Source: an uncultured Eubacteriales bacterium
GTDB taxonomy: Bacteria > Bacillota > Clostridia > Lachnospirales > CAG-274
NCBI GenBank assembly: GCA_902469905.1
Contig: CABREJ010000004.1
Span: 108,554-172,553 of the forward strand
Direction: 5' to 3'
DNA: 64,000 bases
Part shown: positions 6,742-49,922 of the stretch, piece by piece
Numbering within the stretch: the stretch's first letter is position 1
How the letters are laid out: each line of letters opens with the position of its first letter
Position numbers and translations under genes: made by a program
The notes under the pieces: model-generated
What the model saw: the letters and a program-made list of their open reading frames with translations, nothing else
The model's database searches: none
Told to the model about the DNA's origin: nothing

Positions 6742-6756
6742 TTATATAACCTCCCT

Positions 6757-7983: not shown

Positions 7984-8003
7984 AATTTATGCCTCCTAAG
8001 AGA

Positions 8004-8393: not shown

Positions 8394-8405
8394 TTTAAAT
8401 TCCTC

Positions 8406-8774
8406 CTATAAAATACTACCATTTTGCTGTTCGTTAATTGCTTCCTTGTTCCAAGAGCTAACTCTCTTTAATCGTCTTACAACAAGCTTATCAGGGCCAA
8501 TATTGTTGCCCTTAGCACACTCACTAGCTGCAATAGCTGCTGTAATAACTGCAATTAATTCAGCATCATCATTTACCTTAACTTCTTCTACTGCCTTAGG
8601 CTCTACAGCAGGTGTTGTATTAACAACAGGCTTTTCAACCTCTGCCTTTTTGCTACTTGCCACCTTACCAAAAATAAAGAGAACAAAAGATATAAAGATA
8701 AGCACAGCAAATACAGTACAAAAGCCTAAAATAGTAACCATTAAACCTTCAGCTAACCATTCCATATATATCAC
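8406..8774 (-). CDS. Decarboxylase gamma subunit (OadG-like)
   Basis: N-terminal single TM (LMVTILGFCTVFAVLIFISFVLF) then Ala/Glu-rich region typical of OadG. Confidence 0.6.
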   Translation of the reverse strand: MIYMEWLAEGLMVTILGFCTVFAVLIFISFVLFIFGKVASSKKAEVEKPVVNTTPAVEPKAVEEVKVNDDAELIAVITAAIAASECAKGNNIGPDKLVVRRLKRVSSWNKEAINEQQNGSIL

Positions 8775-8777
8775 CTC

Positions 8778-34577: not shown

Positions 34578-34612
34578 ACTATTGCGTGGCATAATAACAC
34601 GCAATAGTTGTT
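34578..34612 (+). terminator. Perfect hairpin after M23 gene (weak U-tract)
   Basis: ctattgcgtggcataataacacgcaatag. Confidence 0.4.
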
Positions 34613-34664
34613 GTACATATATTATAATGCATTAAATGCTCTAGTATCAAACATTTAAACAGCA

Positions 34665-35510
34665 GGTGTAATTAAGGTGTTGTTTAGGTGTTGTTTTTTT
34701 ATAAATTTGTCACCCTATTTTTTGGCTTAAATACTAGAGTTTCAATATATAGGGTGTCAAAAGTGCAAATATTTTTCACTTCTTGAAATGTTATAATATT
34801 TTATATTTTTCAATTATTTTTACCAACCAAAAAAATCGACACTTTTAACACCCTGTTATTTTTTATGTTTATTATATATTTTTCTTTATTATTATAAAAG
34901 TAAGTAAATAAGCCATTAATTGAACATTGTTAAGCAATAAATAATACTAAAAATTAATTATAAATATTAATGTTAATGTACTAATTTTAACACCCAAATC
35001 GACACCCAAACAACACCCTAGCAATATATCTAATTAAAGTAATACTAATATACAGTAAATTAATTATAAAAATAAAATCCATAAGTGTAAAAAGCTCTAA
35101 TATTAAGATTTAACTTAGGGTGCAATTTATGGTGCAGTTTGGGTGCAAGTTTATTGCATATTTTGCACCCCATTTTTTGGCTTAAATACTAGGGTTTCGG
35201 AGTGTATGGTGCAGAATGGTGCATATTTTTTGCACTTACTAAAATGTTTAATAATATTTTTGATTTTCAACTTTTTTGCCAACTAAAAAAACCTGCACCA
35301 TTTTGCACCCCGTTAAAATTTTTATTTAATACTTTATGTATTTTAGTGTAAAAAACATAGTAAATAAGCCATTAATTGAACATTATCAAGCAACAAATAA
35401 TACTAAAAATCAATTATAATGTTAATATTAATGTATTTATTTCTGCACCATATTTTGCACCATAACTTGCACCCTAATTTAAACTATATAAATATAATTG
35501 ATTAAAGTAT
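34665..35510. repeat. Two tandem ~450-bp noncoding modules (unit1 ~34665-35120, unit2 ~35121-35510) with conserved AT-rich backbone but systematically swapped word arrays (GGTGTT/AACACCC in unit1 vs GGTGCA/TGCACCC in unit2)
   Basis: Aligned by eye: caccctattttttggcttaaatactag (34711) vs caccccattttttggcttaaatactag (35167); taagccattaattgaacatt... block conserved; no ORF >60 aa. Confidence 0.65.
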
Positions 35511-35544
35511 AGAAAAAATTAATAGGTAATGTTGGAAAATATTC

Positions 35545-36320
35545 TGTCAACCTACTCTGTGAGGGACGGTAAATGGCATTCCCCACCATACATAAAAATT
35601 AAAAGTAATAGTTATAAAGTACAGCTTGCTTGTAGGGGCGAGCATTGCTCGTCCATAGTAAAACGCGGATATTCGCCCTTAGTTATTCACAAATAGTTAC
35701 ATCGGGCGATTAATAATCGCCCCTACAAATAAACTGTTCTTTATATTTAAAAACACAACTAAAGAATAACAATATAGCTCCACTCTTAGGGACGGTAATG
35801 TGGTGTATCTCTATAGTAGCCTGTTTTAAAAAATGAAAAAGGACGACCACTGGTCGCCCCTACAAATAACCCGTTCATTATATTTAAAAGCACAACAGAG
35901 GAATAACCCTTTAGCTCCACTCTTAGGGGAGCTGGCACGAAGTGACTGAGGGGTTTTATTTAGGTAATAAGTAATAAGTAATAAATAATAGTTAATAGGC
36001 TATATGTAATAGTTACTGTTTGCTTGTAGGGGCGAGCATTGCTCGTCCTTAGTTATAGATAATATCAGAAACCCTTCCGTCAACCTACGGTTGCCACCTT
36101 CCCTATAAGGGACGGTAATGGGTATGTACCCACATATAATTATTAAACAAAAGTACAACTTAATTGTAGGGGCGAACAGTGTTCGCCCGCAGGTATTTAC
36201 AAATAGTTACATTAGGCAAACATCAGCATTTTTGCTACGCAAAACAAATCTTTTAATAAATCTAATTTTCATACAATCTAATTGATATTAAACATTAAAA
36301 AGGTCGACCACTGGTCACGC
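35545..36320. repeat. Second cluster of the same mosaic repeat families: hairpin units at 35631-35654, 35700-35727, 35841-35864, 36025-36048, 36165-36190, degenerate 36302-36320; 45-nt element 35912-35957; GGGACGGTAATGG-type units 35545-35584, 35775-35810, 36076-36132
   Basis: Direct reading; units share GTAGGGGCGA / TCGCCCCTAC arms with variable 4-10 nt cores. Confidence 0.7.
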
Positions 36321-36321
36321 G

Positions 36322-36771
36322 TCAATTTATACTATCCATAATTTTATCAACGAGCATAACATCTGCCGGAAGCCACTGAACATCATATAAACTATCCTTT
36401 GTCAGCCACTTTGCCGCTTCAGCCTCCAGCAATTTCAATTCACCGTCAATAACCTCACACCAGAAGCAATCCATAGATAAATGAAATGTTGGATAATCAT
36501 ATTCAATAGTATCTATCAAATCACCTACTATGATTGTTGCTTCCAATTCTTCTTTTATTTCTCTAACAAGGGCCTCTCGTGGTGTCTCACCAGTTTCTAT
36601 TTTTCCTCCTGGAAATTCCCACTGTCCTTTAAATTCTCCATATCCTCTAGCTGTTGCAAATATTCGTTTCTTTTCCTGTATTGAATCGCAAATAACAGCA
36701 GCTACAACTCTTATAGTTTTCATATCTGTCCTAAATAAATTCAAGCATTTTCTTTTCAATGCAGAATTCAT
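36322..36771 (-). CDS. Nudix hydrolase
   Basis: Nudix box GGKIETGETPREALVREIKEELEA (GX5EX7REUXEEXGU). Confidence 0.8.
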   Translation of the reverse strand: MNSALKRKCLNLFRTDMKTIRVVAAVICDSIQEKKRIFATARGYGEFKGQWEFPGGKIETGETPREALVREIKEELEATIIVGDLIDTIEYDYPTFHLSMDCFWCEVIDGELKLLEAEAAKWLTKDSLYDVQWLPADVMLVDKIMDSIN

Positions 36772-37408
36772 ATCCCATCTTTTTTAATCCAACTTTGCCA
36801 AAGTCTACCGCAATAGATGTTCCTTCGATTGAAGCAATAGTTCCAGTTCCAAATGTCTTATGTTTTACTTGCTTACCCACAATATCAGCAGGAATAACAA
36901 CGGGTGGTTTTGGCTCTGGCTTAGGAATAACTGGTGGAACATACGTAGATTTGCTACCCGTCTTTTTCTTAGCAGTAACCATCTTCATATACTGTTCATC
37001 CACATCTTTACCACGTGCTTTGAAATCTTCAATATCCTTAAATACAAACATATCTGGTTTCTTTACATCATTATCAGGCACCGGGCGAATAGGGAACATC
37101 CACACCTTTCTTGGCACTCCGTCCTCACCTGGTTGAGTTTCTGTATATGGCTTATCAACCAGTTCAATTCTTCCGCAGTAAATATATTCACCTGCGTCCA
37201 TTACTTCAAATAGGTGAACATCAACACCGTTATATCCACATTCCGCAAGAGTAGAATTTTGTGCCCAGTTAATATCCTGGTCTCCATTTTTTCCCATTCC
37301 TGTGTAATGAAGAACGCCACCTATCCATTTGTCATGATATATTCCTTTTGTATAATCAGACACAATAACCAGAGTATTCGTTGTCTTTGAGCGGCACATA
37401 CCGCTCAT
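36731..37408 (-). CDS. SRA (YDG)-domain protein, modified-cytosine binding-like, with Pro-rich linker and small C-terminal domain; overlaps Nudix gene start by ~40 bp
   Basis: HYTGMGKNGDQD ~ UHRF1 YTGSGGRD; NSTLAEC ~ NRALALNC; EYIYCGRIELV ~ YDGIYKVV; RKVWMFPIRP ~ GFLVWRYLLRR (from memory of SRA fold motifs). Confidence 0.55.
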   Translation of the reverse strand: MSGMCRSKTTNTLVIVSDYTKGIYHDKWIGGVLHYTGMGKNGDQDINWAQNSTLAECGYNGVDVHLFEVMDAGEYIYCGRIELVDKPYTETQPGEDGVPRKVWMFPIRPVPDNDVKKPDMFVFKDIEDFKARGKDVDEQYMKMVTAKKKTGSKSTYVPPVIPKPEPKPPVVIPADIVGKQVKHKTFGTGTIASIEGTSIAVDFGKVGLKKMGYEFCIEKKMLEFI

Positions 37409-37886
37409 ATTTCCACACTTAAATGTATCTACAAATCAGCATTTTTCAAAACTTGTCCTATTTCTAATCTAGGATTAAACATAAATACGCCTCCAATTTT
37501 ATAACACCTAACTTACTCACTCAATTTATGACATCTATTTCAAACTCACAACCCTATCACATTTTACGACGGATATGTTTCCGTAAAGAAAATTGGGTCA
37601 ATTAAAAAATTAGTATTTTACTCCCAACTTCTGAAATCGCCCATAAATAAACCCTTTTCAAGCTACAATTATCTCACCTTTGACATCAACACCACAGTCT
37701 CCACATGGCATAGAAGATGTTTCGCATACTAAATAGCGAAAATAAGCCTATTTTAAGCAAAGGGGGTTATTTTTGGAATTAACCCCCTATATTCAAGCAA
37801 TATAACCAAATTATATATATTATTTTTAAGTTAAATAAAATCACTTAAAAATTATAAGCATGCAATTACATTAAAATTAAGTAACA

Positions 37887-39149
37887 CTACATAAAAAATC
37901 TAAAATCATATGGTCTATCATATATAGCAATCTCCTGTTTTGCCATCTTAGATAGTTTTTTTGAGAAATCTAACGTAACCGGCAACACTTTATAAAAGCT
38001 ATCTCCGCTATTCCAATTCATTTTTGTTAACATCATTATTTCATCAACTAATGTTTTACCATCCGCATTTCCTAAAAAACGTTTTATATATAATGGTACA
38101 GGTATTTCCCTGCCATTTTTATAGTAATTCCTATTCTTTCCAGCTAATTCATCATGTTGAACTGCTCCATGTGTCCACAACAAGAAACTATTATCATCTA
38201 TAGGTATCACTGTTCCTCTAGATATAGGAAATGCTGAGGCCTTTGATTTAAAATCATTACTATCAAATCTAATTGCCCTCCATTGATTAAATTCTTGAAT
38301 TTGAATCAACTCAATGTCTTCAACTCCAACTAATCCGGCCTGTATTCCTTCTATTTCCTCTTTGGTAAAGAATGTAGTCTTATGAATTACTATTCTTTTT
38401 AAACTGTATGTGGGAACAGAATTATCATATAAATCTTTCAGTTTGCTCATTAATAATCTTGCATCATCTTTTCTCATAAATGGATTTTTATTAATAAATT
38501 GTGGATTTTTTATAGGACGAAGAAATAATCTCATTCCATTACCTTGTGCATCAAACAATTGGCTGCATCCGATCAGAATTTCTTTCTTACCTGCCATAGC
38601 TTGTACATAACTTAACCCAACATATGCTGTATCAATCCTATAATTTTCAGGAGTCCATAATTTACCTATTGCTTTTGTATAAATTGCCGTAGATAAACCC
38701 CACATAATTTTAGCCAAATCATTATATCTGTTTTGCACAACAGAACGTGCTTCTATAAACTGAGTTTTAATTTCCTTTTGTGCACAGTATAACTTTATGG
38801 AATCATGCAAGTCAAAATATTCTTTATCATTTTTTAACTCCCTATATTTTTTAAACTCAAACGGAATATAAATTACAAGCATATCAAATTCTGATACATT
38901 CTCATATAAACTATCAATATACTTAAGCAATCCCCTAAAAAATTGTTTGATATTACAGTTAAGTGCCTTACTCATAGAATAACCTTTATATCTCATACTG
39001 TCATTTTTATAAGGAATATCTATAGCACATCTAAAAATAATATTAAACCCATCATATTCCGGCAAAAAACATTTTTCATTACTATAGTTGGAAACCGCTC
39101 TATTATTTAATTTATGTGTCAAGACAGACCTCCGTCCCCTGTCTTGCAT
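37887..39149 (-). CDS. Short prokaryotic Argonaute (MID-PIWI), catalytically inactive; annotated ATG lies inside an IS inverted repeat so true start is probably a downstream Met (e.g. MRYKGYSM)
   Basis: PIWI landmarks in order: KAIGKLW (pAgo KxGGxPW-like), TAYVGLSYV (GxDVxH position, D->S), RIVIHKTT (RDG position -> KTT), QIQEFNQWRAIRF (~VVQKRHHTRLF), IPVPLYIKRFLG (~IPAPAYYAHLVA); MID-like DMLVIYIP...YRELK...EIKTQFIE. Confidence 0.6.
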   Translation of the reverse strand: MQDRGRRSVLTHKLNNRAVSNYSNEKCFLPEYDGFNIIFRCAIDIPYKNDSMRYKGYSMSKALNCNIKQFFRGLLKYIDSLYENVSEFDMLVIYIPFEFKKYRELKNDKEYFDLHDSIKLYCAQKEIKTQFIEARSVVQNRYNDLAKIMWGLSTAIYTKAIGKLWTPENYRIDTAYVGLSYVQAMAGKKEILIGCSQLFDAQGNGMRLFLRPIKNPQFINKNPFMRKDDARLLMSKLKDLYDNSVPTYSLKRIVIHKTTFFTKEEIEGIQAGLVGVEDIELIQIQEFNQWRAIRFDSNDFKSKASAFPISRGTVIPIDDNSFLLWTHGAVQHDELAGKNRNYYKNGREIPVPLYIKRFLGNADGKTLVDEIMMLTKMNWNSGDSFYKVLPVTLDFSKKLSKMAKQEIAIYDRPYDFRFFM

Positions 39150-39282: not shown

Positions 39283-39780
39283 TCATTTATCATTCTTTGG
39301 ATCATATTTTACAAGTGTTATTACGCTTTCAGCAAAATCAATCCAATCAGCATTATCATCAAGACATAATAACTTTACACCTGTATAGCTATAACCTCTT
39401 TTATCCGGTAAATCTAAAGACGCATATTTACCCCATCTATCATTCCAGCCTATTTCAATCTTTTTTTTACCTTTCATTACCTTATTAAACCCCTTTATAC
39501 CATAATATACTTCCTCATAAGTTTTATTTATCCTCTGGTCATAAAGGAAATAAGGCTCCTTAATTTCTTCGCTCATAGCATACTCGATAGCATTGGCAAG
39601 TTCATTTGCTGTATATGGTGTTTTCAATTCAACAGGAACATTTACCATAAATCCCCTAAAGTCATCATCTGGCTTTATATTATCCAATTGCCCGCGTGAA
39701 AAAATTGCAATATTCTCTTTCTCATCTATTAAGATTTCGACCCTTTTATATTCCTCAAAATTAACTTTCATACAGTACAT
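39283..39780 (-). CDS. Putative immunity protein for orphan RHS toxin tip
   Basis: Small cytosolic ORF immediately downstream (4-bp gap) of the orphan toxin C-terminal module. Confidence 0.4.
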   Translation of the reverse strand: MYCMKVNFEEYKRVEILIDEKENIAIFSRGQLDNIKPDDDFRGFMVNVPVELKTPYTANELANAIEYAMSEEIKEPYFLYDQRINKTYEEVYYGIKGFNKVMKGKKKIEIGWNDRWGKYASLDLPDKRGYSYTGVKLLCLDDNADWIDFAESVITLVKYDPKNDK

Positions 39781-39783
39781 CTC

Positions 39784-40593
39784 CTATTCAACTATTCTTG
39801 TAATTACATCTATTCCCTTTTCTTTTGCATAACTCACAACTTCACTAAATACCTTTGATTGTTCCTTGCTCATTTCAACTGGAGGAATTGCTATCTCTAA
39901 AAATTTTTTTCCACCTTTATCTAAAGCGTATTGTTCCCCTAAGTATGTCTTTCTATAAAACTTAGATAAATCATCAACATATTGTATTAAAGTTCTCTTC
40001 AAAGTATTTGCATTTTTATAACTTTTAGCTGTAACATCTATACTTTTAATACTAGTAACTGATGATAACCAATGAACGCCATCCTTTTTAAATGCCTCTA
40101 CAAATTTATCTATAGTCTGGAAATTATTACACATACCTCCCAAAGCTTTTTCAATTTCCCAACCTCTATCAAATACTTTCATTGCCCATACTCCAGTTTT
40201 AACATAATCATCAGCTTTTGAAAGTATTTTTGTTCCGCTTTTTATTGTTTTTGCTACATATGATCCTGGTGCATAAGGTACAAGTAAAGCAGCAGCATCC
40301 CATGCTAAAAAGCCAAAATTAGCTAAACTAGGATCATTTACAAAGTCAACAAAACTCCATCCTAAACTAAATAAATCAATAACAGTTTCAACTGGTACTT
40401 CACCTGAAGTGTCTAAATACTTAGTAGGATTATTATAACAATAAGTATACCAATTAACCCCATCTCTAATCGGATCCTCAGTAATAAACCTACCGCTTTC
40501 ACTGTCATAATACCTATTCCTTAGATATATAAGTCCGCTCTCACTATCAAGATATTCACCACAATAGCCAAAAGGAACATCATTTACATTAGA
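39784..40593 (-). pseudogene. Orphan RHS C-terminal toxin module (no start; begins exactly at IS inverted repeat 40595-40623)
   Basis: Own translation of 40593->40183 gives SNVNDVPFGYCGEYLDSESGLIYLRNRYYDSESGRFITEDPIRDGVNWYTYC..., near-identical to RHS 41637..43679 residues around PxxxxDPxGL, continuing in frame into ORF 39784..40182 with a different toxin tip. Confidence 0.65.
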
Positions 40594-40783: not shown

Positions 40784-41110
40784 CAAGACAGAGAACCGTC
40801 CCCTGTCTTGCTTCCTAAAAAGCGTGCCCCTATTGAGGGCAAAAATGCAGAAATGAAAAGATTTCATGGTCTAGCTCGTGCCAGAGGGTACGGGCTTAGA
40901 AGTGTTGCACTTCAAACTAAATTTACTGCAATCGCAGTAAATTTAAAGAGGATAACAAAGCTGTTATCCTCTCAAAAAGCAAATATTTTAGCAAAGCTGC
41001 AAGTAACTATTTTTAATTTTTCAATTTCCTTGTTTTTGAAATTTCAAATACGTTAAAAACAGCTTAAAATGGGGACTTTTTCAGTGGTCTCGAACCATCC
41101 CATTGTCTAC
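40784..41110 (+). mobile_element. Internally deleted IS remnant (IS5/IS1182-like): left IR, C-terminal transposase fragment (40808..41056), degenerate right end
   Basis: ORF KRFHGLARARGYGLRSVALQTKFTAIAVNLKRITKLL resembles DDE transposase C-terminus; IR at 40784-40811; right-end segment shared with 39170-39222. Confidence 0.55.
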
Positions 41111-41133: not shown

Positions 41134-41640
41134 CTAGTTTTCAACAATAGAAAGTGATTCTGGATTATATTTTAAATCAAAAATTATTCGTTCATTCTTA
41201 TTAGTTAGGTATATAAATATTTTATTATTATAATAATTTTTATCAAAATAAGCTCTACTTGTACCTTTATCCATAGGCAAGTATGGAAATCTTTGTTCTT
41301 TTACATGAATTAATTTATTTATTTTTCTACCCTGAGATATAACAACATTGTATCTATTAAAGTCAATTTCAGAAAAATCAATTTCATCCAACGAAAAAGT
41401 AGGACTATTTAATGGATTTGGTTTTTCATCAGCATAGTGCAAAACATCCCACCAAACATATGGTATTTTATCATTAGAAAAATTGATATTATATTCAATA
41501 GATTTATATTCAAGAAGTTTTACTTGATATTCTTTATATTTAAGAAAATGATCTATTATTATAAAAGCCACTATAATTATAATTATTACTATACATAAGA
41601 TAATAGAACATATAAACCTATTTGGCTTTACTGTAATCAT
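41134..41640 (-). CDS. Putative membrane-anchored immunity protein of RHS toxin
   Basis: Starts 4 bp inside RHS stop; N-terminal TM helix; position typical for RhsI. Confidence 0.45.
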   Translation of the reverse strand: MITVKPNRFICSIILCIVIIIIIVAFIIIDHFLKYKEYQVKLLEYKSIEYNINFSNDKIPYVWWDVLHYADEKPNPLNSPTFSLDEIDFSEIDFNRYNVVISQGRKINKLIHVKEQRFPYLPMDKGTSRAYFDKNYYNNKIFIYLTNKNERIIFDLKYNPESLSIVEN

Positions 41641-43679
41641 GCTACTCCCTCCGTTTTTTCATAATATATAGGTTTTCCATTCAGGTCATACGCATTTAAA
41701 AGTCTATAATTATTAATATTTTTTAAATCATTTACATTTAACGTTTGACCATCTATATTTGAATATACAGTAATAGTATCCATACTCTTTGTATATTTAA
41801 TAAAACCCAGCTCACTTCTTTTTCCATTTCTTAACCATGAAGCAAAATAATCTGTACCAGAATTTAAAATTGGCTTGCCTGTTAATACTGACCATCTCAT
41901 ACTACCATCCCAGCCATACACATTTTTAACATTTTGGTATTTAGCAAACTCAAAAGCTAAATTTTCAGTACTATAATCTTGGTGTGCAGAATTACAAGAA
42001 TTTAATATAATTGTATTGATATTTTTTTCTTTTAAATCTTTGACATGTACACAATCTCCCTGATAATTACGACTTTCAGTAACTAATGGTTCACCATTCA
42101 TAATAATTGCTTGTGGATTAGCATGAAAAAATAATTCTACTAATTCTATTTCTGAACCTTTATTGTCCATATTATCCCATTCTTCTTTAAACTGTTTAGC
42201 ATTTGAAATCATTTTTATATATACAGTTTTTCCCTCAAGTTCAAGTTCTTTTTTCCTTTTATAAGCTCTATCCCCCAAAGAAGCATTGTTTTTATCTGCT
42301 TCATTATAAAAAATATATACATCCTCTAGTCCCAATAAATCCCAAAACATCACAGGATTACCACCACAATAACTATACCAATTAACCCCATCTCTAATCG
42401 GGTCCTCAGTAATAAACATGCCGCTTTCACTGTCATAGTACCTATTCCTAAGATAAATCAATCCACTTTCACTATCAAGATATTCACCACAATAGCCAAA
42501 AGGAACATCATTTACATTAGAGCTTTCAACCTTATTGCCATAAGCATCATACCTAGTAATATTTTCAGCTACAGTTCCCCTGTTTTGTTGAACAAGGTTA
42601 CCATGACCATCATACATATATGCTCGTCTGTCATCATCTGTTAACAACTGATGTCCTCTTGTATAGCCTCTTAATATTGTATTAGACGAATTTGCCTCTG
42701 CAACTATATTGTCAACGTCCCATATCTGCTGAGTGAGTACTCCGTCCACAGTCTTTGACATTCTGTAATGATTTGGTAAATAAGCATAAGTCGCAGTTGT
42801 ACCATTACTTTTTTTATATTCTGTCAGCTCATTAAGTCTGTCATAAGTAAATATTTCATAACTCGTGCTATCGTCTGTATTAGCATCATTAATACTTATA
42901 GTGAACTTATTGTCAATATTCTGATTATACTTAGCCTTACTTATCTGATTACCGTTATTATCATAGCTATATTCGGTTATTGTATAATTAACTAAATCCG
43001 ATATTTCATTGGATTTATCTATACTGTAATTCTCTCTTTTTTCTTTAAGTAATCTGTTATTTTTATCATAAGTATATTTAACATAATAATCATCATAGCC
43101 ATCTTCGCTGCTATATACATCAGTTCTGTTTCCAAATATATTGTAATAATAACTGGTATAATACTCTATGCCACTTTCATTTCTGCGTTCACCTGTCAAT
43201 TGGTTAGATGAATTATACTCATATCTTACAATCCTGCCATTTGTATCAGTAGCCTTGTTAATATTACCATCATAGTTATAAACATAACTGTACTTTGTAT
43301 CTAAACTGCCACTGCCGTCATTATTTATCACAGTAAGCATATTGGCATTATTGTATGTATATGTTCTTGTACAGTTATTATCCTCTACCTTAGTAATATT
43401 ACTGTTATTGTCATAGGTGTAATTAGCAGTAAATTTAGTTGTACTATCTCCTTCGGAGCTGACGGAAAGTAGTCTGCTAAGTCCGTCATAGGTATACTTT
43501 TGAATTTTATATGTAGTATTACCCTTTTTATATACATTTTGGGTATTTCTGCCCCATGTATCGTATATTCTCGCTATACTGAAATTTCCTGTTGTTTCAG
43601 TTGCTACAAGACCTAAATTGTTGTATGTATAGCTTTGACTTACATTGCTGTTTACTGATGTCTTTACTCCTCCTGTCAT
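41637..43679 (-). CDS. RHS/YD-repeat protein, 5'-truncated (680 aa), with C-terminal polymorphic toxin domain
   Basis: YD repeats (YTYDNNSNITKV, YTYNNANMLTV, YEYNSSNQLTGE...), core-end motif FITEDPIRDGVNWYSYCGGNPVMFWDLLGL, then ~225-aa variable tip. Confidence 0.8.
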   Translation of the reverse strand: MTGGVKTSVNSNVSQSYTYNNLGLVATETTGNFSIARIYDTWGRNTQNVYKKGNTTYKIQKYTYDGLSRLLSVSSEGDSTTKFTANYTYDNNSNITKVEDNNCTRTYTYNNANMLTVINNDGSGSLDTKYSYVYNYDGNINKATDTNGRIVRYEYNSSNQLTGERRNESGIEYYTSYYYNIFGNRTDVYSSEDGYDDYYVKYTYDKNNRLLKEKRENYSIDKSNEISDLVNYTITEYSYDNNGNQISKAKYNQNIDNKFTISINDANTDDSTSYEIFTYDRLNELTEYKKSNGTTATYAYLPNHYRMSKTVDGVLTQQIWDVDNIVAEANSSNTILRGYTRGHQLLTDDDRRAYMYDGHGNLVQQNRGTVAENITRYDAYGNKVESSNVNDVPFGYCGEYLDSESGLIYLRNRYYDSESGMFITEDPIRDGVNWYSYCGGNPVMFWDLLGLEDVYIFYNEADKNNASLGDRAYKRKKELELEGKTVYIKMISNAKQFKEEWDNMDNKGSEIELVELFFHANPQAIIMNGEPLVTESRNYQGDCVHVKDLKEKNINTIILNSCNSAHQDYSTENLAFEFAKYQNVKNVYGWDGSMRWSVLTGKPILNSGTDYFASWLRNGKRSELGFIKYTKSMDTITVYSNIDGQTLNVNDLKNINNYRLLNAYDLNGKPIYYEKTEGVA

Positions 43680-44590: not shown

Positions 44591-45145
44591 TTATATAACT
44601 GTAGTGGTATGACACACTGCTCTAAATATCAACATCTGGTCCAAATCAGCATCTTCAATAGAACAAGGGGCACCACCACGCAAAGCTGTTTCCAGATGAT
44701 AAAATAGCATACATTGTTTTATGTGTCCAAGTAGTAGCTGTGACCTTCGTTTATAACCATACTGTTTGAGAAGTGTTCTAAGTTTGATTCTCACATAATT
44801 GTTTCCATTTCCATATAAAATCCGAATCCTTATACTTTTGAAAAACAAATCTAAATTAGAAAAGTCACTAGTTAATTGTTCAGTAGACAAAGTCCTATTT
44901 GAATATGCCAAATCCTTTTGTATTGCAGGAAACTCTTTATCAATAACGGTTTTATTATAGAAGTACTGCATCCAATAATATGTATCTAAAATAAATTTCC
45001 GTTGATTTTTCCTATATGGAATATCTAAAAATGATTTCTCGCCTTCCCATATCAAGTCAAGTATTCTTATTTCATCTCGACATCCGAGTTGCATACGGCT
45101 GACAATGACAGCAATATCCAGTGCAGTATAATATAACCCTTGCAT
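44591..45145 (-). CDS. Hypothetical protein co-operonic with helicase-HNH (ATGA overlap)
   Basis: 184 aa, no recognisable domain. Confidence 0.4.
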   Translation of the reverse strand: MQGLYYTALDIAVIVSRMQLGCRDEIRILDLIWEGEKSFLDIPYRKNQRKFILDTYYWMQYFYNKTVIDKEFPAIQKDLAYSNRTLSTEQLTSDFSNLDLFFKSIRIRILYGNGNNYVRIKLRTLLKQYGYKRRSQLLLGHIKQCMLFYHLETALRGGAPCSIEDADLDQMLIFRAVCHTTTVI

Positions 45146-47457
45146 TATTTATCACCCTTCGTTCCGTTACACTTGCGACAAAGAATCTGTAAATTTTCTG
45201 CAACACTTTTGCCTCCATTGTTCATTGGAATTATATGGTCAACTTGAAAATAGATACGCGACTTGTCTGCAACGCCACAGCACGCACAATGGTAATTTCC
45301 ATTTATATCTTTTGCTTTTTCAAAAGCTTGATTTCTTAAGCTCTTTTCCAGTGTAGGATTGATTTTTCCAATTTCATACAGTGACAAATCTTCCAATGCT
45401 CTAGTTCCATACTTTATATTGTTTTCTTCATTATAAATATCTGGATGAGATAATTTCATCAATTCAATACTCAACTGACGGAGGAAGTAAAGTTTTCTAC
45501 CAAAGAACAAACGAAGCATATTGTCATCACTGGATTCCCAAAGAGAATCAATATATTCTGTTCTTTTGCGTTCACCCATATCTTCATCCCAAATATGTTG
45601 AGCAATTTTGCTTACATCGAGCTTACTTCTATCGACTTCATCAAATGTATAAAATTTAGGAACAGCTTCATATTGAGCATAATATTTCAAAATATTCAAA
45701 ATATCCTTTCGTTCGTAAGGTGGAATCATTTCTCCACAGAAGAACGAATTTCTGCACTGTGCTTCCATTTCATCAATCTGTGTTTCCGTTAAATATTCTT
45801 CAGTTGCACCAAAAGACTTAAATAGTGAAGGAAGTGCATCCATTAAATTTTTATAGGCATCTTGGGTACTATCATAAACCATTACCTGATAAGAATGATC
45901 CATTCCATTTTCTTCAAGATATGTAAAAGCATACATTCCAACAGGGATTCTTTTTTCAAAAGGAACTTTTTCCAACGCAGTAGTATCAACTGCATCATCT
46001 AAAATAGCAGCAAATTCCTCTATTTTAGAAATGGCAATCATTCGCAAATCTCGTTTTGCTCGTTCAAAGTCATTATCCTGGAAGTCATTATTTCCATCAA
46101 ATAAGCTTTCTGGATTAACCCACGCAATGTGTTCGTTCCAGTAATCAACAAACGAAACAATGTATGCAATTGAAGTACCACCAGCTGCTGTACCACGCAA
46201 TGCACGACCAACCATCTGGGTCATCAAAATTGAAGACACAGTAGGTCTTGCTAAAAACACGGTTTTAGTTTTTGGCAAATCGACACCTTCGGTCAAAATA
46301 TTGACATTGATTAAAACCTGCAATTTTCCATTTCGGTAATTATCAAGCTTTATTTCGTTATCTTCTCGGCTGATAGTCACACCAGTAATAGCATCTTTGA
46401 CTGAAGATACAATAAAGTCCGCTTTGATACCAGCTTTTTTGAAAAGAGATGTTAATTGAATTGCATGAACCACATTAACAGCAAACAGGATTGTTTGACC
46501 ATATTCATCCTGCTTTGCCTTATATGTTTCAACAATCAGTTTGTTACGGGCAGCACTATCTGCCATCTGCTGTGCAACTTCATCGGGCAAAACATCCAAA
46601 TGCTGAATACTTTCCCAAGCATCAAAGCCAAGCGAATCACCATATTCTTCATCTGTATAAAAACTTTCAAATATCGGCTTTGCAAGAATCTGTCTGTTAA
46701 TCAGCTCTTTAAGTCCAATTTGGTATGTAATTCCTACATCACTATGAACAACTTGTCCATTACTGATTCCATCGGTATAAATTTTTGCCAAAAGCCCCTG
46801 TTCTTCTTCAGCAGTACGAAACGGAGTTGCAGTCAACCCAATTAGCTTTAAGTTAGGAATCTTTGCCTTTACATAATCAATAACTTTTCTGTAGGTTTTT
46901 GCAGTTGAATGGTGTGCTTCATCCACAATTAGATACAGCTCTTTTTCACCTTTGAGCCAACAATCCAGTCGCTCAATATTTCTTCCAATACTATCTTTAC
47001 TGACAATCAACAAATTGTCGCTTGAGCGAATATCACTGGTTCTGTCATGACTGGATGCACCAGATACAATTCTGAAACAGAAAGAAGAAATGTGAGGAAC
47101 AACTTCTGTATAAGCAAACTTTTGGAATGATTCAGCAGCCTGATTTAACAGCATCTGACGGTGGGCAATCCAAAGAATTTTCTTTTTCTTATCAATCGCA
47201 TTTTTTAAAAGCCACATAGAAGCAGTATATGTCTTACCACCACCAGTTGGAAGAACCACCAATGTATTGTAAGATGGTTCCTGATTCATCTTATCTAATG
47301 CTTCCATAGCTTTTTTCTGATGTTCGTAAGGCGTTCTAGTATTTGTGCCTTTTTTGGGAAAAATATCACCAAATGATTTAACTTCAATATAATTTGTAAA
47401 GTTTTGTTTGTCTATTTCTTTCATTATTTTTTCCTGTTCCTCTCTATATTGAACCAT
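45145..47457 (-). CDS. SF2 helicase (DEAH, type III res-like) fused to C-terminal HNH endonuclease
   Basis: Motif I LPTGGGKT, II VDEAHH, III LTATP, VI QMVGRALRG; C-term CACCGVADKSRIYFQVDHIIPMNNGGKSVAENLQILCRKCN. Confidence 0.75.
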   Translation of the reverse strand: MVQYREEQEKIMKEIDKQNFTNYIEVKSFGDIFPKKGTNTRTPYEHQKKAMEALDKMNQEPSYNTLVVLPTGGGKTYTASMWLLKNAIDKKKKILWIAHRQMLLNQAAESFQKFAYTEVVPHISSFCFRIVSGASSHDRTSDIRSSDNLLIVSKDSIGRNIERLDCWLKGEKELYLIVDEAHHSTAKTYRKVIDYVKAKIPNLKLIGLTATPFRTAEEEQGLLAKIYTDGISNGQVVHSDVGITYQIGLKELINRQILAKPIFESFYTDEEYGDSLGFDAWESIQHLDVLPDEVAQQMADSAARNKLIVETYKAKQDEYGQTILFAVNVVHAIQLTSLFKKAGIKADFIVSSVKDAITGVTISREDNEIKLDNYRNGKLQVLINVNILTEGVDLPKTKTVFLARPTVSSILMTQMVGRALRGTAAGGTSIAYIVSFVDYWNEHIAWVNPESLFDGNNDFQDNDFERAKRDLRMIAISKIEEFAAILDDAVDTTALEKVPFEKRIPVGMYAFTYLEENGMDHSYQVMVYDSTQDAYKNLMDALPSLFKSFGATEEYLTETQIDEMEAQCRNSFFCGEMIPPYERKDILNILKYYAQYEAVPKFYTFDEVDRSKLDVSKIAQHIWDEDMGERKRTEYIDSLWESSDDNMLRLFFGRKLYFLRQLSIELMKLSHPDIYNEENNIKYGTRALEDLSLYEIGKINPTLEKSLRNQAFEKAKDINGNYHCACCGVADKSRIYFQVDHIIPMNNGGKSVAENLQILCRKCNGTKGDK

Positions 47458-47644: not shown

Positions 47645-48511
47645 TTAATTTACCTCAATTTCCTTCAAACTTCTACCATCTTTTGTTTTCCATTTTTGAG
47701 GTCCACTAACATTATAGCCAAGTACAAACTTTGCCGCAGCTGACGAACTGGAAAACAAAATATCGTCCTTAGTTATATAGTTATCAACCTTATCTGATTC
47801 CAGAAGTTTTTGTTTCAACATCTTCATACCTTCACTTAAAGAATCAGCAGAATCTCTTTTATCAATATTAGCTCCGGCAAACACTACAAACCCTTCTGCT
47901 GTAACTTTACCTTTAGCATTAACAGAACCCGATGAAATATATAAAATCTCATCATCAACAGTTGTATTTACAATATCCTTTTGAACCAAAGGTTCTAAAA
48001 CCTTATAACCAAGTGAATTAATAAGAATCTTTACATTATCAATAAATTCTTCCATTACAGCTATTTGTGATTTCTTCATAACTGTATTGCTATATGTGTT
48101 CTTTGTAAGCACAAGATACCTTTTATTCTCTCTTGCAATTTCAACAAAACGATTTTCCAAATATCTAATAAGTGCCTTGCTCAAATCTCTGCCAATAAAG
48201 ATAACAGCTGTATTCCAATAATACTTTTCTTTTTCAGACTGATAATCTCTCAAGTGCTGAACAAGTCTATCTTTAACATTTTCTGCTTCTCCAATGTAAA
48301 CAGAGTCAGAGCCGTCATCTTCCTTACAAAAAAGGAAGTATACTCCTGCCTGAGTAATATCGTCACTGTTACAAGAAGAAACCTCAATACGAGGAATTTT
48401 TATTGCCTTACCATTCCAATTTGATAACTCTGCAATAATCAGACTGTCTGCTGTTCCATTTACAAGAAACAATTCTATCACTTTTCCATAAGCCATTTTA
48501 AATTTCTCCAT
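47645..48511 (-). CDS. GIY-YIG nuclease family protein with DUF4357-like C-terminal domain
   Basis: GVYFLF...VYIGEAENVKDRLVQH GIY-YIG core. Confidence 0.65.
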   Translation of the reverse strand: MEKFKMAYGKVIELFLVNGTADSLIIAELSNWNGKAIKIPRIEVSSCNSDDITQAGVYFLFCKEDDGSDSVYIGEAENVKDRLVQHLRDYQSEKEKYYWNTAVIFIGRDLSKALIRYLENRFVEIARENKRYLVLTKNTYSNTVMKKSQIAVMEEFIDNVKILINSLGYKVLEPLVQKDIVNTTVDDEILYISSGSVNAKGKVTAEGFVVFAGANIDKRDSADSLSEGMKMLKQKLLESDKVDNYITKDDILFSSSSAAAKFVLGYNVSGPQKWKTKDGRSLKEIEVN

Positions 48512-48845: not shown

Positions 48846-49922
48846 TTATTTCTTTGCATTTTCTTCTAATTCCAACATATATTTATCAAAGTCAGACATA
48901 AATAATCTGTCCTGAACAACTCGATATTTTTCAAATTCAGTTTCAGCTTTTGCCTTGGCAATCTCTGCTGTGATTTTGCCTGCATCCTGAAGAACCTCCC
49001 TGTCATCAGCCATCAGGAATAAATCAAGGCGCTTTGACCAATCTTCCATTGTCATTGGAATATGGCGTTCTGCACGGTCTTCGGCCAAATCCAAATAAGC
49101 GGATACAATACGCTCTAATGAACGCATTTCTTGCTCACTAAGATAATTCTTCGCAACACCCACATCACTTTTTACAATCTTACCTTCCGGTGCTGCTGCC
49201 CATGTAGTTAATCCCATGTGTGGCTTATCTGCATCTGCTCGCTCATAAATCAACTCTGCAGCTGTACGCCCATGTATTGCATAATGCATCTTGTTTTGAA
49301 CCTTTGCAAAAAACTGCTTAGTTGTTTTTGCAGTACGGTCATAATCAAGAGCTGTCGCATAGATGTCTGTTATCTTCTGGTAAAACCTACGCTCAGACAA
49401 ACGGATTTCTCTAATCTGCTCAAGCAAACGTTCGAAATATTCTGTTGTAAGTATTGAACCACCATTCTTCAAACGCTCATCATCAATGACCCAGCCTTTG
49501 ATGGTGTAGTCCTTGACAATGCCGTTAGACCACTTGCGAAACTGCACAGCTCTCTCATTATTCACCTTGAATCCAACAGCAATAATCATTTGAAGATTAT
49601 AATGCTTGGTGTCACGAGTAACCTGACGGGAACCTTCCGTTTGAACTATCCGGAAATTCCGGATAGTTGAATCTTCCTCAAGTTCTGAATCTGAATAAAT
49701 TTTTTTAATATGGTCGTTGATTGTACGAACATCCACATCATATAATGTAGCCATCATCTTCTGTGTCAGCCATATATTCTCATCCTCATAGCGCATTTCA
49801 AAACTGTCCTGCTGGTCGCCGACAGTGGCAACATAGGTCAAATATTCTGCTGCGCTGGAACGGATGGTTACTTCATCTTTTTTCTTTTTCAAATAGGAGG
49901 CCTCCTTCTGGTTATTTCTCAT
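48846..49922 (-). CDS. RhuM-family protein (virulence protein RhuM / putative DNA-binding)
   Basis: ENIWLTQKMMATLYDV...HYNLQMIIAVGFKVNNERAVQFRKWSNGIVKDYTIKGW matches RhuM consensus from memory. Confidence 0.6.
   Translation of the reverse strand: MRNNQKEASYLKKKKDEVTIRSSAAEYLTYVATVGDQQDSFEMRYEDENIWLTQKMMATLYDVDVRTINDHIKKIYSDSELEEDSTIRNFRIVQTEGSRQVTRDTKHYNLQMIIAVGFKVNNERAVQFRKWSNGIVKDYTIKGWVIDDERLKNGGSILTTEYFERLLEQIREIRLSERRFYQKITDIYATALDYDRTAKTTKQFFAKVQNKMHYAIHGRTAAELIYERADADKPHMGLTTWAAAPEGKIVKSDVGVAKNYLSEQEMRSLERIVSAYLDLAEDRAERHIPMTMEDWSKRLDLFLMADDREVLQDAGKITAEIAKAKAETEFEKYRVVQDRLFMSDFDKYMLELEENAKK

What the first reader, a model, noticed from the sequence alone, without database searches (positions are those of the whole stretch)
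36322..37408. SRA-domain protein coupled to a Nudix hydrolase: candidate modification-sensing two-gene module
The 225-aa protein carries SRA/YDG-fold landmarks (YTGMGKNGDQD, NSTLAEC, EYIYCGRIEL, VWMFPIRP) and has no attached nuclease. In bacteria SRA domains are normally fused to HNH or PD-(D/E)xK nucleases in type IV restriction enzymes. Here the SRA gene overlaps a canonical Nudix hydrolase by ~40 bp, which suggests translational coupling. A modified-cytosine reader paired with a nucleotide pyrophosphatase effector is not an arrangement I can assign to a named system.
Basis: partly seen in the sequence, partly recalled or inferred. Interest (0 to 1): 0.65.

Follow-up and report, generated by a model that had tools for sequence, protein, structure and literature searches.

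The report
Nuclease-free modified-cytosine reader with Nudix partner
This is a frameshifted copy of a widespread two-gene operon in gut bacteria that pairs a DNA reader for modified cytosine (no nuclease, but a polymerase/repair-docking Tudor domain) with a small nucleotide-cleaning enzyme, a pairing also seen with several anti-phage restriction enzymes and never explained.

Summary
Both genes are real, but three details of the finding need correcting.

1. The 225-aa ORF is the remnant of a 250-aa gene. A 1-nt deletion after codon 16 creates a stop, and two near-invariant residues are also changed (G27S, R30C).
2. The "~40-bp overlap" comes from taking the longest ORF.

The SRA fold is confirmed. 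The AF2 model has pLDDT 90.6, and all top PDB matches are SRA domains (ScoMcrA, SUVH5, UHRF1, MspJI). Homologs carry Pfam SRA_ScoMcrA.

The pair is conserved in 24 of 40 SRA–Tudor loci. The same tight Nudix clade (PADLOC candidate PDC-S07) follows SauUSI-like type IV enzymes in 38 of 75 loci. It is also fused to SRA–HNH enzymes in at least 10 protein clusters.

The Nudix's second-closest PDB sequence match, the closest one with a measured substrate (3GWY), hydrolyses 5-methyl- and 5-hydroxymethyl-dCTP.

A SauUSI–Nudix link was noted in 2011–2012 and left unexplained. I found no description of the SRA–Tudor form.

Verdict: a new variant of a known kind, and probably inactive in this window. The likely mechanism is inferred, not shown.

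The parts
37496..37524 (-). Promoter-like site (TTGAGT-17-TAAAAT) upstream of the original start codon
   Evidence: Consensus scan, (9 of 12 matches). This is a pattern match only. The number of such sites in the region is not above the shuffled expectation.
37490..37494 (-). GGAGG ribosome-binding site, 7 nt before the original ATG
   Evidence: Read directly from the sequence.
37429..37482 (-).
   Evidence: DNA alignment with L004, L001, L003 and L010 shows a single-base gap. Restoring one G gives a 250-aa protein that differs from P0001 at 5 of 250 positions.
36731..37408 (-). The 225-aa ORF as listed. It is the remaining reading frame of the SRA-Tudor gene, restarting at internal Met26.
   Evidence: It carries G27S and R30C, at positions where 56 of 60 family members have G and R.
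37079..37482 (-). SRA (SRA_ScoMcrA-type) modified-base reader domain, residues 1-135 of the restored protein. It is interrupted by the frameshift.
   Evidence: The AF2 model of the homolog P0001, which differs from the restored window protein at 5 of 250 positions, has pLDDT 90.6. The top 40 Foldseek PDB hits are all SRA-containing: ScoMcrA 5zmn (E 2e-7), SUVH5 (TM-score on the target 0.64-0.69), UHRF1, MspJI and SauUSI. Homologs carry PF26348 = SRA_ScoMcrA. D51 is invariant in the domain alignment, and Y49 and Y60 are present in at least 90% of members.
36887..37078 (-). Long helix (residues 151-174) and a Pro-rich, low-confidence linker (PPVIPKPEPKPPVVIP)
   Evidence: Secondary structure and pLDDT profile of the AF2 model (pLDDT below 50 at residues 180-185).
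36734..36886 (-). PcrA/UvrD-type Tudor domain (residues 200-250 of the restored protein)
   Evidence: PF21196, 25.0 bits against a cut-off of 23.9. phmmer match to the T. thermophilus UvrD C-terminal domain 7egt_B, E 0.003, with GLKKM aligned to GLKRL. Foldseek: 7egt_B TM-score on the target 0.83 and rmsd 1.2; 7egs_B (the complex with the RNAP beta lobe) rmsd 1.0.
36322..36723 (-). Nudix hydrolase, 133 aa, MutT/NudG type (PADLOC candidate PDC-S07).
   Evidence: PF00293 1.5e-16. PDC-S07 1.2e-47, aligned from residue 16. TIGR00586 MutT 90.7 bits, below the 97.9 cut-off. Best PDB matches are 5x1x MutT and 3gwy, E about 1e-20. The catalytic REIKEE motif is intact (read from the sequence).
36305..36317 (-). 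Terminator-like hairpin followed by a T-run, just after the Nudix stop codon
   Evidence: This is a pattern match only.

Best explanation
The locus is a copy, inactivated or at least N-terminally truncated here, of a mobile two-gene operon that is widespread in gut and rumen Firmicutes and belongs to the world of type IV (modification-dependent) restriction.

Gene 1 encodes a reader for 5-substituted cytosine. Its SRA_ScoMcrA-type domain is the one found in about 275-aa McrA-like SRA-HNH restriction enzymes. In this protein the HNH nuclease is replaced by a helix, a disordered Pro-rich linker and a PcrA/UvrD-type Tudor domain.

Gene 2 encodes a MutT/NudG-type Nudix that recurs as a partner of modified-cytosine sensors of several architectures.

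Proposed mechanism:
1. The SRA domain flips out and binds modified cytosine (5mC, 5hmC or similar) in invading DNA. This is inferred from the fold and the conserved Tyr/Asp/Tyr pocket motif.
2. Modified DNA is then either blocked for transcription or handed to host repair nucleases, with no dedicated nuclease needed. This step is inferred and is the least certain.
3. The Nudix hydrolyses 5-substituted dCTPs to monophosphates. That would starve phages that build DNA from such nucleotides, and/or stop salvaged modified dCMP from being re-incorporated into host DNA, where it would provoke self-targeting. This is inferred from homology to a biochemically characterised enzyme and from the choice of partners.

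The Nudix gene is intact.
For: Fold and domain identity:
- SRA fold and Tudor fold at high confidence.
- Pfam SRA_ScoMcrA on homologs.

The SRA clade:
- Among 74 longer relatives of this SRA module, 38 hit Pfam HNH (PF01844), 20 hit HNH_5 and 13 hit HNH_2 (overlapping counts), 11 hit Pfam SAD_SRA directly, 3 hit AspBHI_N and 2 carry NUDIX.
- The HNH of relatives is EcoKMcrA-like (6ghc, 1.3e-22).

Conservation of the pair:
- A Nudix lies directly downstream in 24 of 40 SRA-Tudor loci with room. Spacers are a few to about 50 nt (7 nt in the window, 8 nt in L001 and L143), and the flanks differ between loci, so the pair moves as a unit.
- Reciprocally, among 75 Nudix loci (71-85% identical to the window's Nudix), 38 have a SauUSI-like PLD-helicase-DUF3427 enzyme immediately upstream and 3 have an SRA protein.
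- Nudix-SRA(-HNH) fusions occur in at least 10 protein clusters, including isolates from different phyla (Gordonibacter, Marinospirillum).
- An unfused Nudix overlaps the start of an SRA-HNH gene by 8 nt in a Chromohalobacter prophage.
- The window's Nudix is 82-83% identical to both SRA-linked and SauUSI-linked copies.

Biochemistry of relatives:
- 3GWY (B. fragilis Q5LBB1) is the second-best PDB match (E 1.6e-20, aligned end to end). It hydrolyses 5-Me-dCTP, 5-hydroxymethyl-dCTP and 5-Me-CTP at 4-7 x 10^6 M-1 s-1. E. coli NudG prefers 5-methyl-dCTP (PMC5158307).
- The Tudor domain of PcrA/UvrD sits on a disordered linker and binds a motif in RNAP beta and in UvrB (PMC8318588). Its conserved lysine (UvrD K708, PMC5397179) corresponds, by my own reading of the motif, to K in GLKKM; the alignment of GLKKM to T. 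thermophilus UvrD GLKRL is.
- Expression of an SRA domain alone partially attenuated T4gt infection (PMC6765204, reported there as data not shown).

Context:
- The window region is a defence island.
Against: - No binding, hydrolysis or phage assay exists for either protein.
- The Nudix scores below the NCBIfam cut-offs for both MutT (90.7 against 97.9) and NudG (72 against 156), so an 8-oxo-dGTPase or other specificity is not excluded.
- The characterised Bacteroides enzyme sits in housekeeping contexts, not beside type IV genes.
- 34 of 75 Nudix loci have other upstream genes (Fic, NERD-helicase, unknown pairs), and 16 of 40 SRA-Tudor loci lack the Nudix. Neither gene strictly needs the other.
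- Deleting the SauUSI-linked nudix gene did not reproduce the transformable phenotype of the sauUSI deletion (PMC3312211, data not shown there), so the Nudix is not an obligatory effector.
- The Tudor partner is unknown.
Confidence: 0.55

Rival explanations
1. The adjacency is coincidental. The Nudix is a house-cleaning MutT-like gene, or a generic passenger of defence islands, that marks a hotspot where different defence cassettes land. The SRA-Tudor protein works independently of it.
For: - 34 of 75 Nudix loci have unrelated upstream genes such as Fic, NERD-helicase and unknown pairs.
- 16 of 40 SRA-Tudor loci have no adjacent Nudix.
- Close relatives of the characterised enzyme are stand-alone housekeeping-like genes.
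- Deleting nudix in S. aureus gave no restriction phenotype (PMC3312211).
Against: - Nudix-SRA-HNH fusions recur in at least 10 clusters across phyla.
- The genes are co-oriented with spacers of -1 to +34 nt for SauUSI-like partners and a few to about 50 nt for SRA-Tudor partners, two sensor families with different overall architectures.
- The pairs keep together while their flanks change.
- Nudix sequences partly co-cluster with their partner type.
Confidence: 0.17
2. The SRA-Tudor protein is an epigenetic reader and transcription factor rather than a defence protein. It reads the host's own cytosine methylation and uses the Tudor domain to recruit or stall RNA polymerase at methylated sites.
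For: - There is no nuclease.
- The Tudor domain is of the RNAP-binding PcrA/UvrD type.
- The family is very widespread and well conserved.
Against: - The gene is patchily distributed and horizontally mobile: 70-90% identity across different Firmicutes families, next to serine recombinases and at prophage ends.
- It sits in defence islands.
- It is often pseudogenised.
- No DNA cytosine methyltransferase recurs in its neighbourhood.
Confidence: 0.1
3. It is an anti-restriction or shielding factor of mobile elements. A nuclease-free SRA domain coats modified cytosines of the element's own DNA, or competes with resident SRA-type type IV enzymes, and so protects methylated mobile DNA.
For: - Nuclease-free derivative of a type IV sensor.
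- Found next to serine recombinases and at the ends of predicted prophages.
Against: - It co-occurs in an operon with the same Nudix that accompanies active type IV enzymes.
- It is found among McrBC, SLFN-helicase and other defence genes.
- Only 3 hits in 2.9 million viral contigs.
- The Tudor domain has no obvious role in shielding.
Confidence: 0.08
4. In this particular window the pair is simply a dead remnant with no current function. The reader is a pseudogene and the Nudix is an orphan survivor.
For: - A 1-nt deletion plus G27S and R30C at near-invariant sites.
- The surrounding island shows decay: a transposase fragment, a short pAgo with no detected partner, and REP-like repeats.
Against: - A sequencing or assembly error at one base cannot be excluded.
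- An internal Met26 could give an N-truncated protein. Independent loci carry comparable 5' frameshifts with the rest of the ORF intact.
- This reading is compatible with the best explanation for the family as a whole and is not really exclusive of it.
Confidence: 0.6

Closest known systems
SRA-HNH type IV modification-dependent restriction endonucleases (ScoA3IV/Sco5333, TagI, ScoMcrA; about 275-aa 'McrA'-annotated SRA_ScoMcrA-HNH proteins)
   Same: They share the SRA_ScoMcrA-type N-terminal sensor (40-60% identity over about 135 residues with many such proteins), the conserved pocket motif, and a defence-island or prophage context. Some of them also have the same Nudix fused or adjacent.
   Different: There is no HNH or other nuclease. 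The C-terminus is instead a helix, a disordered linker and a PcrA/UvrD Tudor domain.
SauUSI (S. aureus) and SauUSI-like PLD-helicase-DUF3427 type IV enzymes with their linked MutT/Nudix gene
   Same: A sensor of 5mC/5hmC encoded next to a MutT-type Nudix of the same close clade (38 of 75 loci). The linkage was noted in PMC3141236 and tested by deletion in PMC3312211. The function of the Nudix is unknown in both cases.
   Different: The sensor here is a small SRA-Tudor protein with no nuclease or ATPase. The gene order is sensor then Nudix, whereas in S. aureus the nudix gene lies upstream of sauUSI. No SauUSI-like gene is present in the window.
B. fragilis Q5LBB1 (PDB 3GWY) and E. coli NudG (Orf135): 5-substituted (d)CTP pyrophosphohydrolases
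   Same: MutT/NudG-type single-domain Nudix of about 130 aa, aligned end to end with the window's Nudix (E 1.6e-20 and 1e-12). Measured preference for 5-Me-dCTP and 5-hydroxymethyl-dCTP (PMC5158307).
   Different: They are only moderately similar to the window's Nudix, which does not reach the NudG or MutT equivalog cut-offs. These enzymes are stand-alone genes in housekeeping contexts. The specificity of the window's clade has not been measured.
[quoted passage not shown]
   Same: Same fold (rmsd 1.0-1.2 A), the same placement at the end of a disordered linker, and a conserved G-x-K motif. In the helicases it docks onto RNAP beta and UvrB (PMC8318588, PMC5397179).
   Different: It is attached to a modified-base reader rather than a helicase. 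Its binding partner has not been tested.
PADLOC candidate PDC-S07
   Same: The window's Nudix matches this model over its full length (1.2e-47), as do the Nudix parts of the fusion proteins.
   Different: PDC-S07 is a single-gene bioinformatic candidate with no assigned partner or mechanism, and I found no test of it. The SRA-Tudor partner has no PADLOC model.

Membership tests
SRA / SAD (PUA-like) modified-base reader domains | SRA beta-barrel fold | tested here: met
   AF2 model pLDDT 90.6. 39 Foldseek PDB hits at E<=1e-3, all SRA-containing structures: ScoMcrA, SUVH5, KRYPTONITE, UHRF1/2, MspJI and SauUSI.
SRA / SAD (PUA-like) modified-base reader domains | Match to a curated SRA family model | tested here: met
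   Homologs, including the one that differs from the restored window protein at 5 of 250 positions, carry precomputed PF26348 = SRA_ScoMcrA. 11 of 74 relatives also hit PF02182 SAD_SRA. The local Pfam copy lacks PF26348, so the window ORF itself gave no hit.
SRA / SAD (PUA-like) modified-base reader domains | Conserved pocket for the flipped base (aromatic pair plus Asp) | tested here: inconclusive
   D51 is invariant, and Y49 and Y60 are present in at least 90% of members. The motif aligns with ScoMcrA Y-A-D...A-Y-V-G-D-G. The profile match to ScoMcrA is weak (E 0.5), and equivalence to UHRF1 Y466/D469/Y478 rests on my recollection of that structure. No residue-level structural superposition was available.
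SRA / SAD (PUA-like) modified-base reader domains | Preferential binding of 5mC/5hmC DNA | not testable with these tools
   Requires EMSA or anisotropy with modified duplexes.
Type IV modification-dependent restriction endonuclease (SRA-HNH / McrA-like) | Nuclease domain (HNH, PD-(D/E)xK or PLD) in the same protein or operon | tested here: not met
   No nuclease domain in either gene by Pfam, NCBIfam or PADLOC or in the structure model. The operon is bounded by promoter-like and terminator-like sites.
Type IV modification-dependent restriction endonuclease (SRA-HNH / McrA-like) | Modification sensor homologous to those of proven type IV enzymes | tested here: met
Type IV modification-dependent restriction endonuclease (SRA-HNH / McrA-like) | No cognate DNA methyltransferase | tested here: met
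   No DNA methyltransferase recurs next to the pair in 48 loci. The only recurrent methyltransferase is an RNA (RlmD/TrmA-type) flank gene.
PcrA/UvrD C-terminal Tudor domain | Pfam PF21196 above the gathering score, and fold match | tested here: met
   25.0 bits against a cut-off of 23.9 for the window ORF. 7egt_B TM-score on the target 0.83 and rmsd 1.2; 7egs_B rmsd 1.0.
PcrA/UvrD C-terminal Tudor domain | Binding to the helicase-interaction motif of RNAP beta or UvrB | not testable with these tools
   The conserved lysine position (GLKKM against UvrD GLKRL) is retained (PMC5397179). Binding needs a pull-down or a complex prediction.
MutT / NudG-type Nudix (d)NTP pyrophosphohydrolase | Nudix fold and Nudix box with catalytic glutamates | tested here: met
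   PF00293 61 bits and PF14815 48 bits. GGKIETGETPREALVREIKEE is present in the sequence.
MutT / NudG-type Nudix (d)NTP pyrophosphohydrolase | Equivalog-level match to MutT (TIGR00586) or NudG (NF007834) | tested here: not met
   90.7 bits against a cut-off of 97.9, and 72.2 against 156. It is a member of the broad subfamily, but the substrate cannot be assigned by equivalog.
PADLOC PDC-S07 (candidate defence Nudix) | Full-length match to the PDC-S07 model | tested here: met
   1.2e-47, residues 16-146 on profile positions 2-130 of 135.
SauUSI-type system | PLD nuclease + SF2 helicase + DUF3427 protein next to the Nudix | tested here: not met
   None in the window. The only tblastn hit is a 24%-identical helicase segment in the unrelated helicase-HNH gene 45145..47457.

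The most novel reading that the evidence does not exclude
The intact operon is a two-pronged defence against phages with modified cytosine, and it has no nuclease of its own. The SRA-Tudor protein marks modified-cytosine DNA and uses its Tudor domain to recruit host RNA polymerase or UvrB, causing either a transcription block or incision by nucleotide excision repair. The Nudix is a dedicated 5-methyl/5-hydroxymethyl-dCTP pyrophosphatase that depletes the phage's special nucleotide and keeps it out of host DNA. The same Nudix would then be the long-unexplained 'safety and starvation' partner of SauUSI and of SRA-HNH type IV enzymes.
Probability: 0.25. Interest if true: 0.8.

Novelty: new variant of a known kind. 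Interest (0 to 1): 0.55.

Why it matters
Type IV restriction enzymes are understood as a sensor plus a nuclease. Two points here go beyond that picture.

First, there is a large family (more than 1000 sequence clusters, mostly from gut and rumen Firmicutes) in which the sensor of McrA-like enzymes has swapped its nuclease for a domain that, in helicases, docks onto RNA polymerase and UvrB. That suggests either restriction by recruiting host machinery or a purely steric, transcriptional mode of defence.

Second, one close clade of MutT-type Nudix genes accompanies at least four architectures of modified-cytosine sensors: SauUSI-like, SRA-Tudor, SRA-HNH (fused and unfused), and a protein with an unknown N-terminal domain followed by SRA.

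Together with published kinetics for a homolog (5-methyl- and 5-hydroxymethyl-dCTP hydrolysis), this turns a question left open since 2011, namely what the SauUSI-linked Nudix does, into a directly testable hypothesis. The hypothesis is that the Nudix sanitises or depletes modified dCTP, which protects the host genome from its own modification-dependent restriction and starves phages that use modified cytosine.

Tried and rejected
Structure prediction and fold search resolved this.
- **Sequence and profile searches against PDB** for the SRA domain were not decisive (best E 0.5 to ScoMcrA).
- **Rfam** over the whole window found nothing.
- **The 41-nt overlap and translational coupling** were rejected.
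- **A functional link to the neighbouring short pAgo** was rejected. No pAgo recurs near the pair in 48 + 80 loci, and a hairpin followed by T's (about 37790-37750, read by eye, not reported by the scan) lies between the genes.
- **Phage origin.** Only 3 hits in viral contigs, all at prophage ends next to serine recombinases.
- **Is the biochemically characterised Nudix (Q5LBB1) itself linked to a type IV enzyme?** No. It sits in housekeeping-like contexts.
- **Decayed neighbour genes in the ORF-poor flanks** (34.6-36.3 kb, 37.4-37.9 kb) were sought by tblastn with all neighbour proteins from related loci. None were found. That stretch consists of REP-like palindromes and a repeat of about 456 nt.
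- **Literature searches** for SRA + Nudix + restriction, and for SRA + Tudor + PcrA, returned nothing.
- **SauUSI-like remnant in the window:** none.
Full report
**What is in the window**

On the minus strand there are two co-oriented ORFs: 36731..37408 (225 aa) and 36322..36771 (149 aa). Three details differ from the finding.

First, the 225-aa ORF is truncated.
- More than 1000 homologs exist, and nearly all are about 250 aa.
- The closest homolog, P0001, begins MFNPGLEIGQVLKNADVVDTFKCGNMGGMRRSK.
- The window encodes the same N-terminus from an ATG at 37482..37480, preceded by GGAGG. After codon 16 it reads GAT-TTG-TAG.
- A DNA alignment with four homologous loci shows a single-base gap at exactly that point.
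- Restoring one G gives a 250-aa protein that differs from P0001 at only five positions.
- Two of those five differences, G27S and R30C, fall where 56 of 60 family members have G and R.
- The copy is therefore probably a pseudogene. At best it yields an N-terminally truncated product from Met26. A single-base sequencing error cannot be excluded.

Second, the 41-nt overlap is not real.
- The PADLOC and NCBIfam MutT and NudG profile matches, and every homologous locus, start at MKTIRVV.

A promoter-like site (37524 to 37496) and a terminator-like hairpin (36317 to 36305) bracket the two genes. These are pattern matches only.

An AlphaFold2 model of full-length P0001 has mean pLDDT 90.6. It shows:
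- a beta-barrel domain (residues 1-135);
- a long helix (151-174);
- a low-confidence Pro-rich linker;
- a small beta domain (200-250).

Foldseek against the PDB returned 39 hits at E<=1e-3. All contain SRA domains: ScoMcrA, SUVH5, KRYPTONITE, UHRF1/Np95, UHRF2, MspJI and SauUSI. The C-terminal domain matched the UvrD and UvrD1 Tudor domains at rmsd 1.0-1.2 A. These include the structures in which that domain is bound to the RNA polymerase beta lobe (7egs) and to UvrB (7egt).

The precomputed Pfam domain on homologs, PF26348, is labelled SRA_ScoMcrA. D51 is invariant in the domain alignment, and Y49 and Y60 are present in at least 90% of members. These residues align with ScoMcrA's Y-A-D...Y-V-G-D-G. 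Equating them with the 5mC pocket of UHRF1 is my inference from that structure.

An exhaustive search shows that the 135-residue module is mobile. Among 74 longer relatives:
- 38 hit Pfam HNH (PF01844), 20 hit HNH_5 and 13 hit HNH_2 (overlapping counts);
- 11 hit Pfam SAD_SRA;
- 3 hit AspBHI_N;
- 2 carry NUDIX.

The HNH of relatives is EcoKMcrA-like. The window protein is therefore a derivative of McrA-like SRA-HNH type IV enzymes in which the nuclease has been replaced by a tethered Tudor domain. PADLOC has no model for it. I found no paper that combines SRA with the PcrA-type Tudor domain.

**The Nudix**

It is a 133-aa MutT/NudG-type enzyme with an intact REIKEE motif.
- It matches the PADLOC candidate PDC-S07 (1.2e-47).
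- It falls just below the NCBIfam MutT cut-off and well below the NudG cut-off.
- Its best PDB relatives are a MutT (5x1x) and 3GWY, B. fragilis Q5LBB1.
- Nguyen et al. 2016 measured Q5LBB1 at 4-7 x 10^6 M-1 s-1 on 5-Me-CTP, 5-Me-dCTP and 5-hydroxymethyl-dCTP, with much lower activity on canonical NTPs. They also tabulate NudG's preference for 5-methyl-dCTP (PMC5158307).
- That characterised enzyme is not encoded next to type IV genes. The specificity is therefore an inference by homology for the window's clade.

**Is the pair conserved?**

- 43 loci carry an SRA-Tudor gene.
- 24 of the 40 with room downstream have the Nudix directly after it. Spacers range from a few to about 50 nt.
- The flanking genes differ between loci: serine recombinases, an rRNA methyltransferase, McrBC, an SLFN-type helicase, YaaC and unknown genes. 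The pair therefore moves as a unit.

From the Nudix side the picture differs. Among 80 metagenome loci whose Nudix is 71-85% identical to the window's, 75 have room upstream. Of these:
- 3 have an SRA gene upstream;
- 38 have a protein of about 1000 aa with PLD nuclease, SF2 helicase and DUF3427 domains, which is the SauUSI architecture, at -1 to +34 nt;
- 34 have other genes (Fic, NERD-helicase, unknown pairs).

Nudix sequences partly cluster by partner type. Even so, the window's Nudix is 82-83% identical to both SRA-linked and SauUSI-linked copies.

Single polypeptides also combine the domains:
- Nudix-SRA: P0202.
- Nudix-SRA-HNH: at least 10 clusters at 90% identity, including isolates Gordonibacter sp. 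28C and Marinospirillum celere.
- Their Nudix parts belong to the same PDC-S07 clade.

In a Chromohalobacter prophage, an unfused Nudix overlaps the start of an SRA-HNH gene by 8 nt. Two loci have a protein with an unknown N-terminal domain followed by SRA directly upstream of the Nudix.

**What was already known**

- Xu et al. 2011 noted that at least 60 SauUSI-like enzymes are linked to a MutT/Nudix gene "whose function remains to be examined" (PMC3141236).
- Monk et al. 2012 deleted the S. aureus nudix gene. [quoted passage not shown]
- PDC-S07 is listed only as a detected candidate.
- Lutz et al. 2019 mention that an SRA domain expressed alone partially attenuated T4gt infection (data not shown; PMC6765204).
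- The PcrA/UvrD Tudor domain, on a long disordered linker, binds a hairpin motif in RNAP beta and in UvrB (PMC8318588). Its conserved lysine matters for function (PMC5397179). The window protein aligns GLKKM to T. thermophilus UvrD GLKRL at that region.

**Most likely mechanism**

Shown:
- the folds and domain order;
- conservation of the pair;
- the fusions;
- the range of sensor partners;
- the defence-island context.

Inferred:
1. The SRA domain binds flipped 5-substituted cytosine.
3. The Nudix hydrolyses 5-substituted dCTP.

Step 3 fits the observation that the Nudix follows the sensor rather than any particular nuclease. It also fits the report that the Nudix is dispensable for restriction itself. 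Such an enzyme would act as a safeguard against re-incorporation of salvaged modified dCMP, which would otherwise cause self-restriction. It could also deplete a phage's special nucleotide.

Main rival: the Nudix is merely a frequent passenger or anchor of defence islands. About 45% of Nudix loci and 40% of reader loci lack the other partner. The recurrent fusions across phyla and the tight co-oriented spacing with two different sensor architectures argue against that.

**State of this copy, and an unexplained point**

The surrounding 36-50 kb is a conflict island. It contains:
- a short pAgo with no detected APAZ partner;
- an RHS protein with an orphan CDI-type toxin cassette;
- a transposase fragment;
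- a helicase-HNH protein;
- a GIY-YIG/DUF4357 protein (PDC-S14);
- RhuM (PDC-S05);
- REP-like repeats.

At least 7 of 43 SRA-Tudor genes in other genomes are also broken or partial.

L143 and L144, from two different samples, carry a different 1-nt deletion at codon 27. It likewise leaves an ORF of about 223 aa that restarts at an internal Met, with the Nudix intact. I could not decide whether this recurrent 5' damage reflects selection against a costly reader, switching, or a functional short isoform.

**Verdict**

- The thing is a new variant of a known kind: a type IV-related modified-cytosine sensor with the SauUSI-type Nudix partner, lacking its own nuclease.
- It is probably inactive in this window.
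- The family deserves experimental follow-up. This individual locus is of moderate interest.

Noticed in passing
window 37887-39149 (-), with 39283-39780 and 39784-40182 upstream: A short prokaryotic Argonaute (420 aa) matches PADLOC pAgo and SIR2-APAZ-pAgo models only from about profile position 61 onward. Neither upstream gene matches any APAZ or effector model, so it looks like an orphan or N-truncated short pAgo.
   Followed up: partly
window 39784-40182 (-), 39283-39780 (-), 41637-43679 (-): A 132-aa CDI_toxin_EC869-like (restriction-endonuclease-like) protein is followed by an unknown 165-aa protein. Both lie downstream of a 680-aa RHS-repeat protein. This looks like an orphan toxin/immunity cassette of an RHS system.
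   Followed up: no
window 34600-36300: A stretch of about 1.7 kb has no ORF above about 55 aa. It is built of REP-like palindromes (TTGTAGGGGCGAGCATTGCTCGTCC at 35620, 36014 and 36154, plus inverted copies) and a direct repeat unit of about 456 nt (34672/35127, 34893/35349). There is no Rfam hit.
   Followed up: partly
window 40808-41056 (+): An 82-aa ORF matches only the C-terminal end of a DDE transposase (DDE_Tnp_1_6, profile positions 79-124 of 125). It is a transposase fragment, consistent with decay of the island.
   Followed up: no
window 45145-47457 (-), 47645-48511 (-), 48846-49922 (-): Further defence-type genes: an SF2 helicase-HNH protein (PADLOC mREase_IV-like), a GIY-YIG + DUF4357 protein (PDC-S14), and a RhuM-family protein (PDC-S05).
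   Followed up: no
L143 2420-2510 and L144 (same layout): There is an independent 1-nt deletion in the SRA-Tudor gene, in the G-run at codon 27. It gives a 223-aa ORF restarting at an internal Met, with the Nudix intact. 7 of the 120 closest homolog clusters are 222-227 aa, so 5' frameshifts recur.
   Followed up: partly
L001 about 5700-7875, L003 about 6820-8880, L042, L141 3842-5692: An SLFN-group-3/DUF2075-type helicase (600-725 aa) repeatedly lies directly after SRA-Tudor(-Nudix) genes, and after an SRA-HNH gene in Sporosarcina. It may be a third component in some versions.
   Followed up: no
L001, L007, L009, L016 (upstream of SRA-Nudix); L055, L067, L074, L091 (upstream of the Nudix alone): An unannotated gene pair (about 277 aa + about 288-337 aa in the first set; about 206 + about 200 aa in the second) recurs directly upstream. 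BLASTP relates the first gene of each set, with hits to 3 members of the matching cluster. The second genes gave no hit to each other. There are no Pfam or PADLOC matches. The SRA gene appears to be optional between this pair and the Nudix.
   Followed up: partly
L054, L057, L064, L065, L070 (just downstream of the Nudix): A 351-aa protein matches PADLOC candidate PDC-S11. By eye, its sequence suggests an N-terminal PD-(D/E)xK-like motif and a C-terminal EVE/PUA-like region. If so, it would be yet another modified-base sensor architecture beside this Nudix. This has not been verified.
   Followed up: no
L004 1554-2592 and 5752-6732: One Clostridium sp. contig carries SRA-Tudor with a truncated Nudix. 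About 3.5 kb further on it carries a fragment of a SauUSI-like gene followed by a second, full-length Nudix.
   Followed up: no
L084 3235-3996 and L095 3133-3993: These proteins of 253-286 aa have the SRA module at the C-terminus, behind an unknown domain of about 115-150 aa. They lie directly upstream of the Nudix.
   Followed up: no
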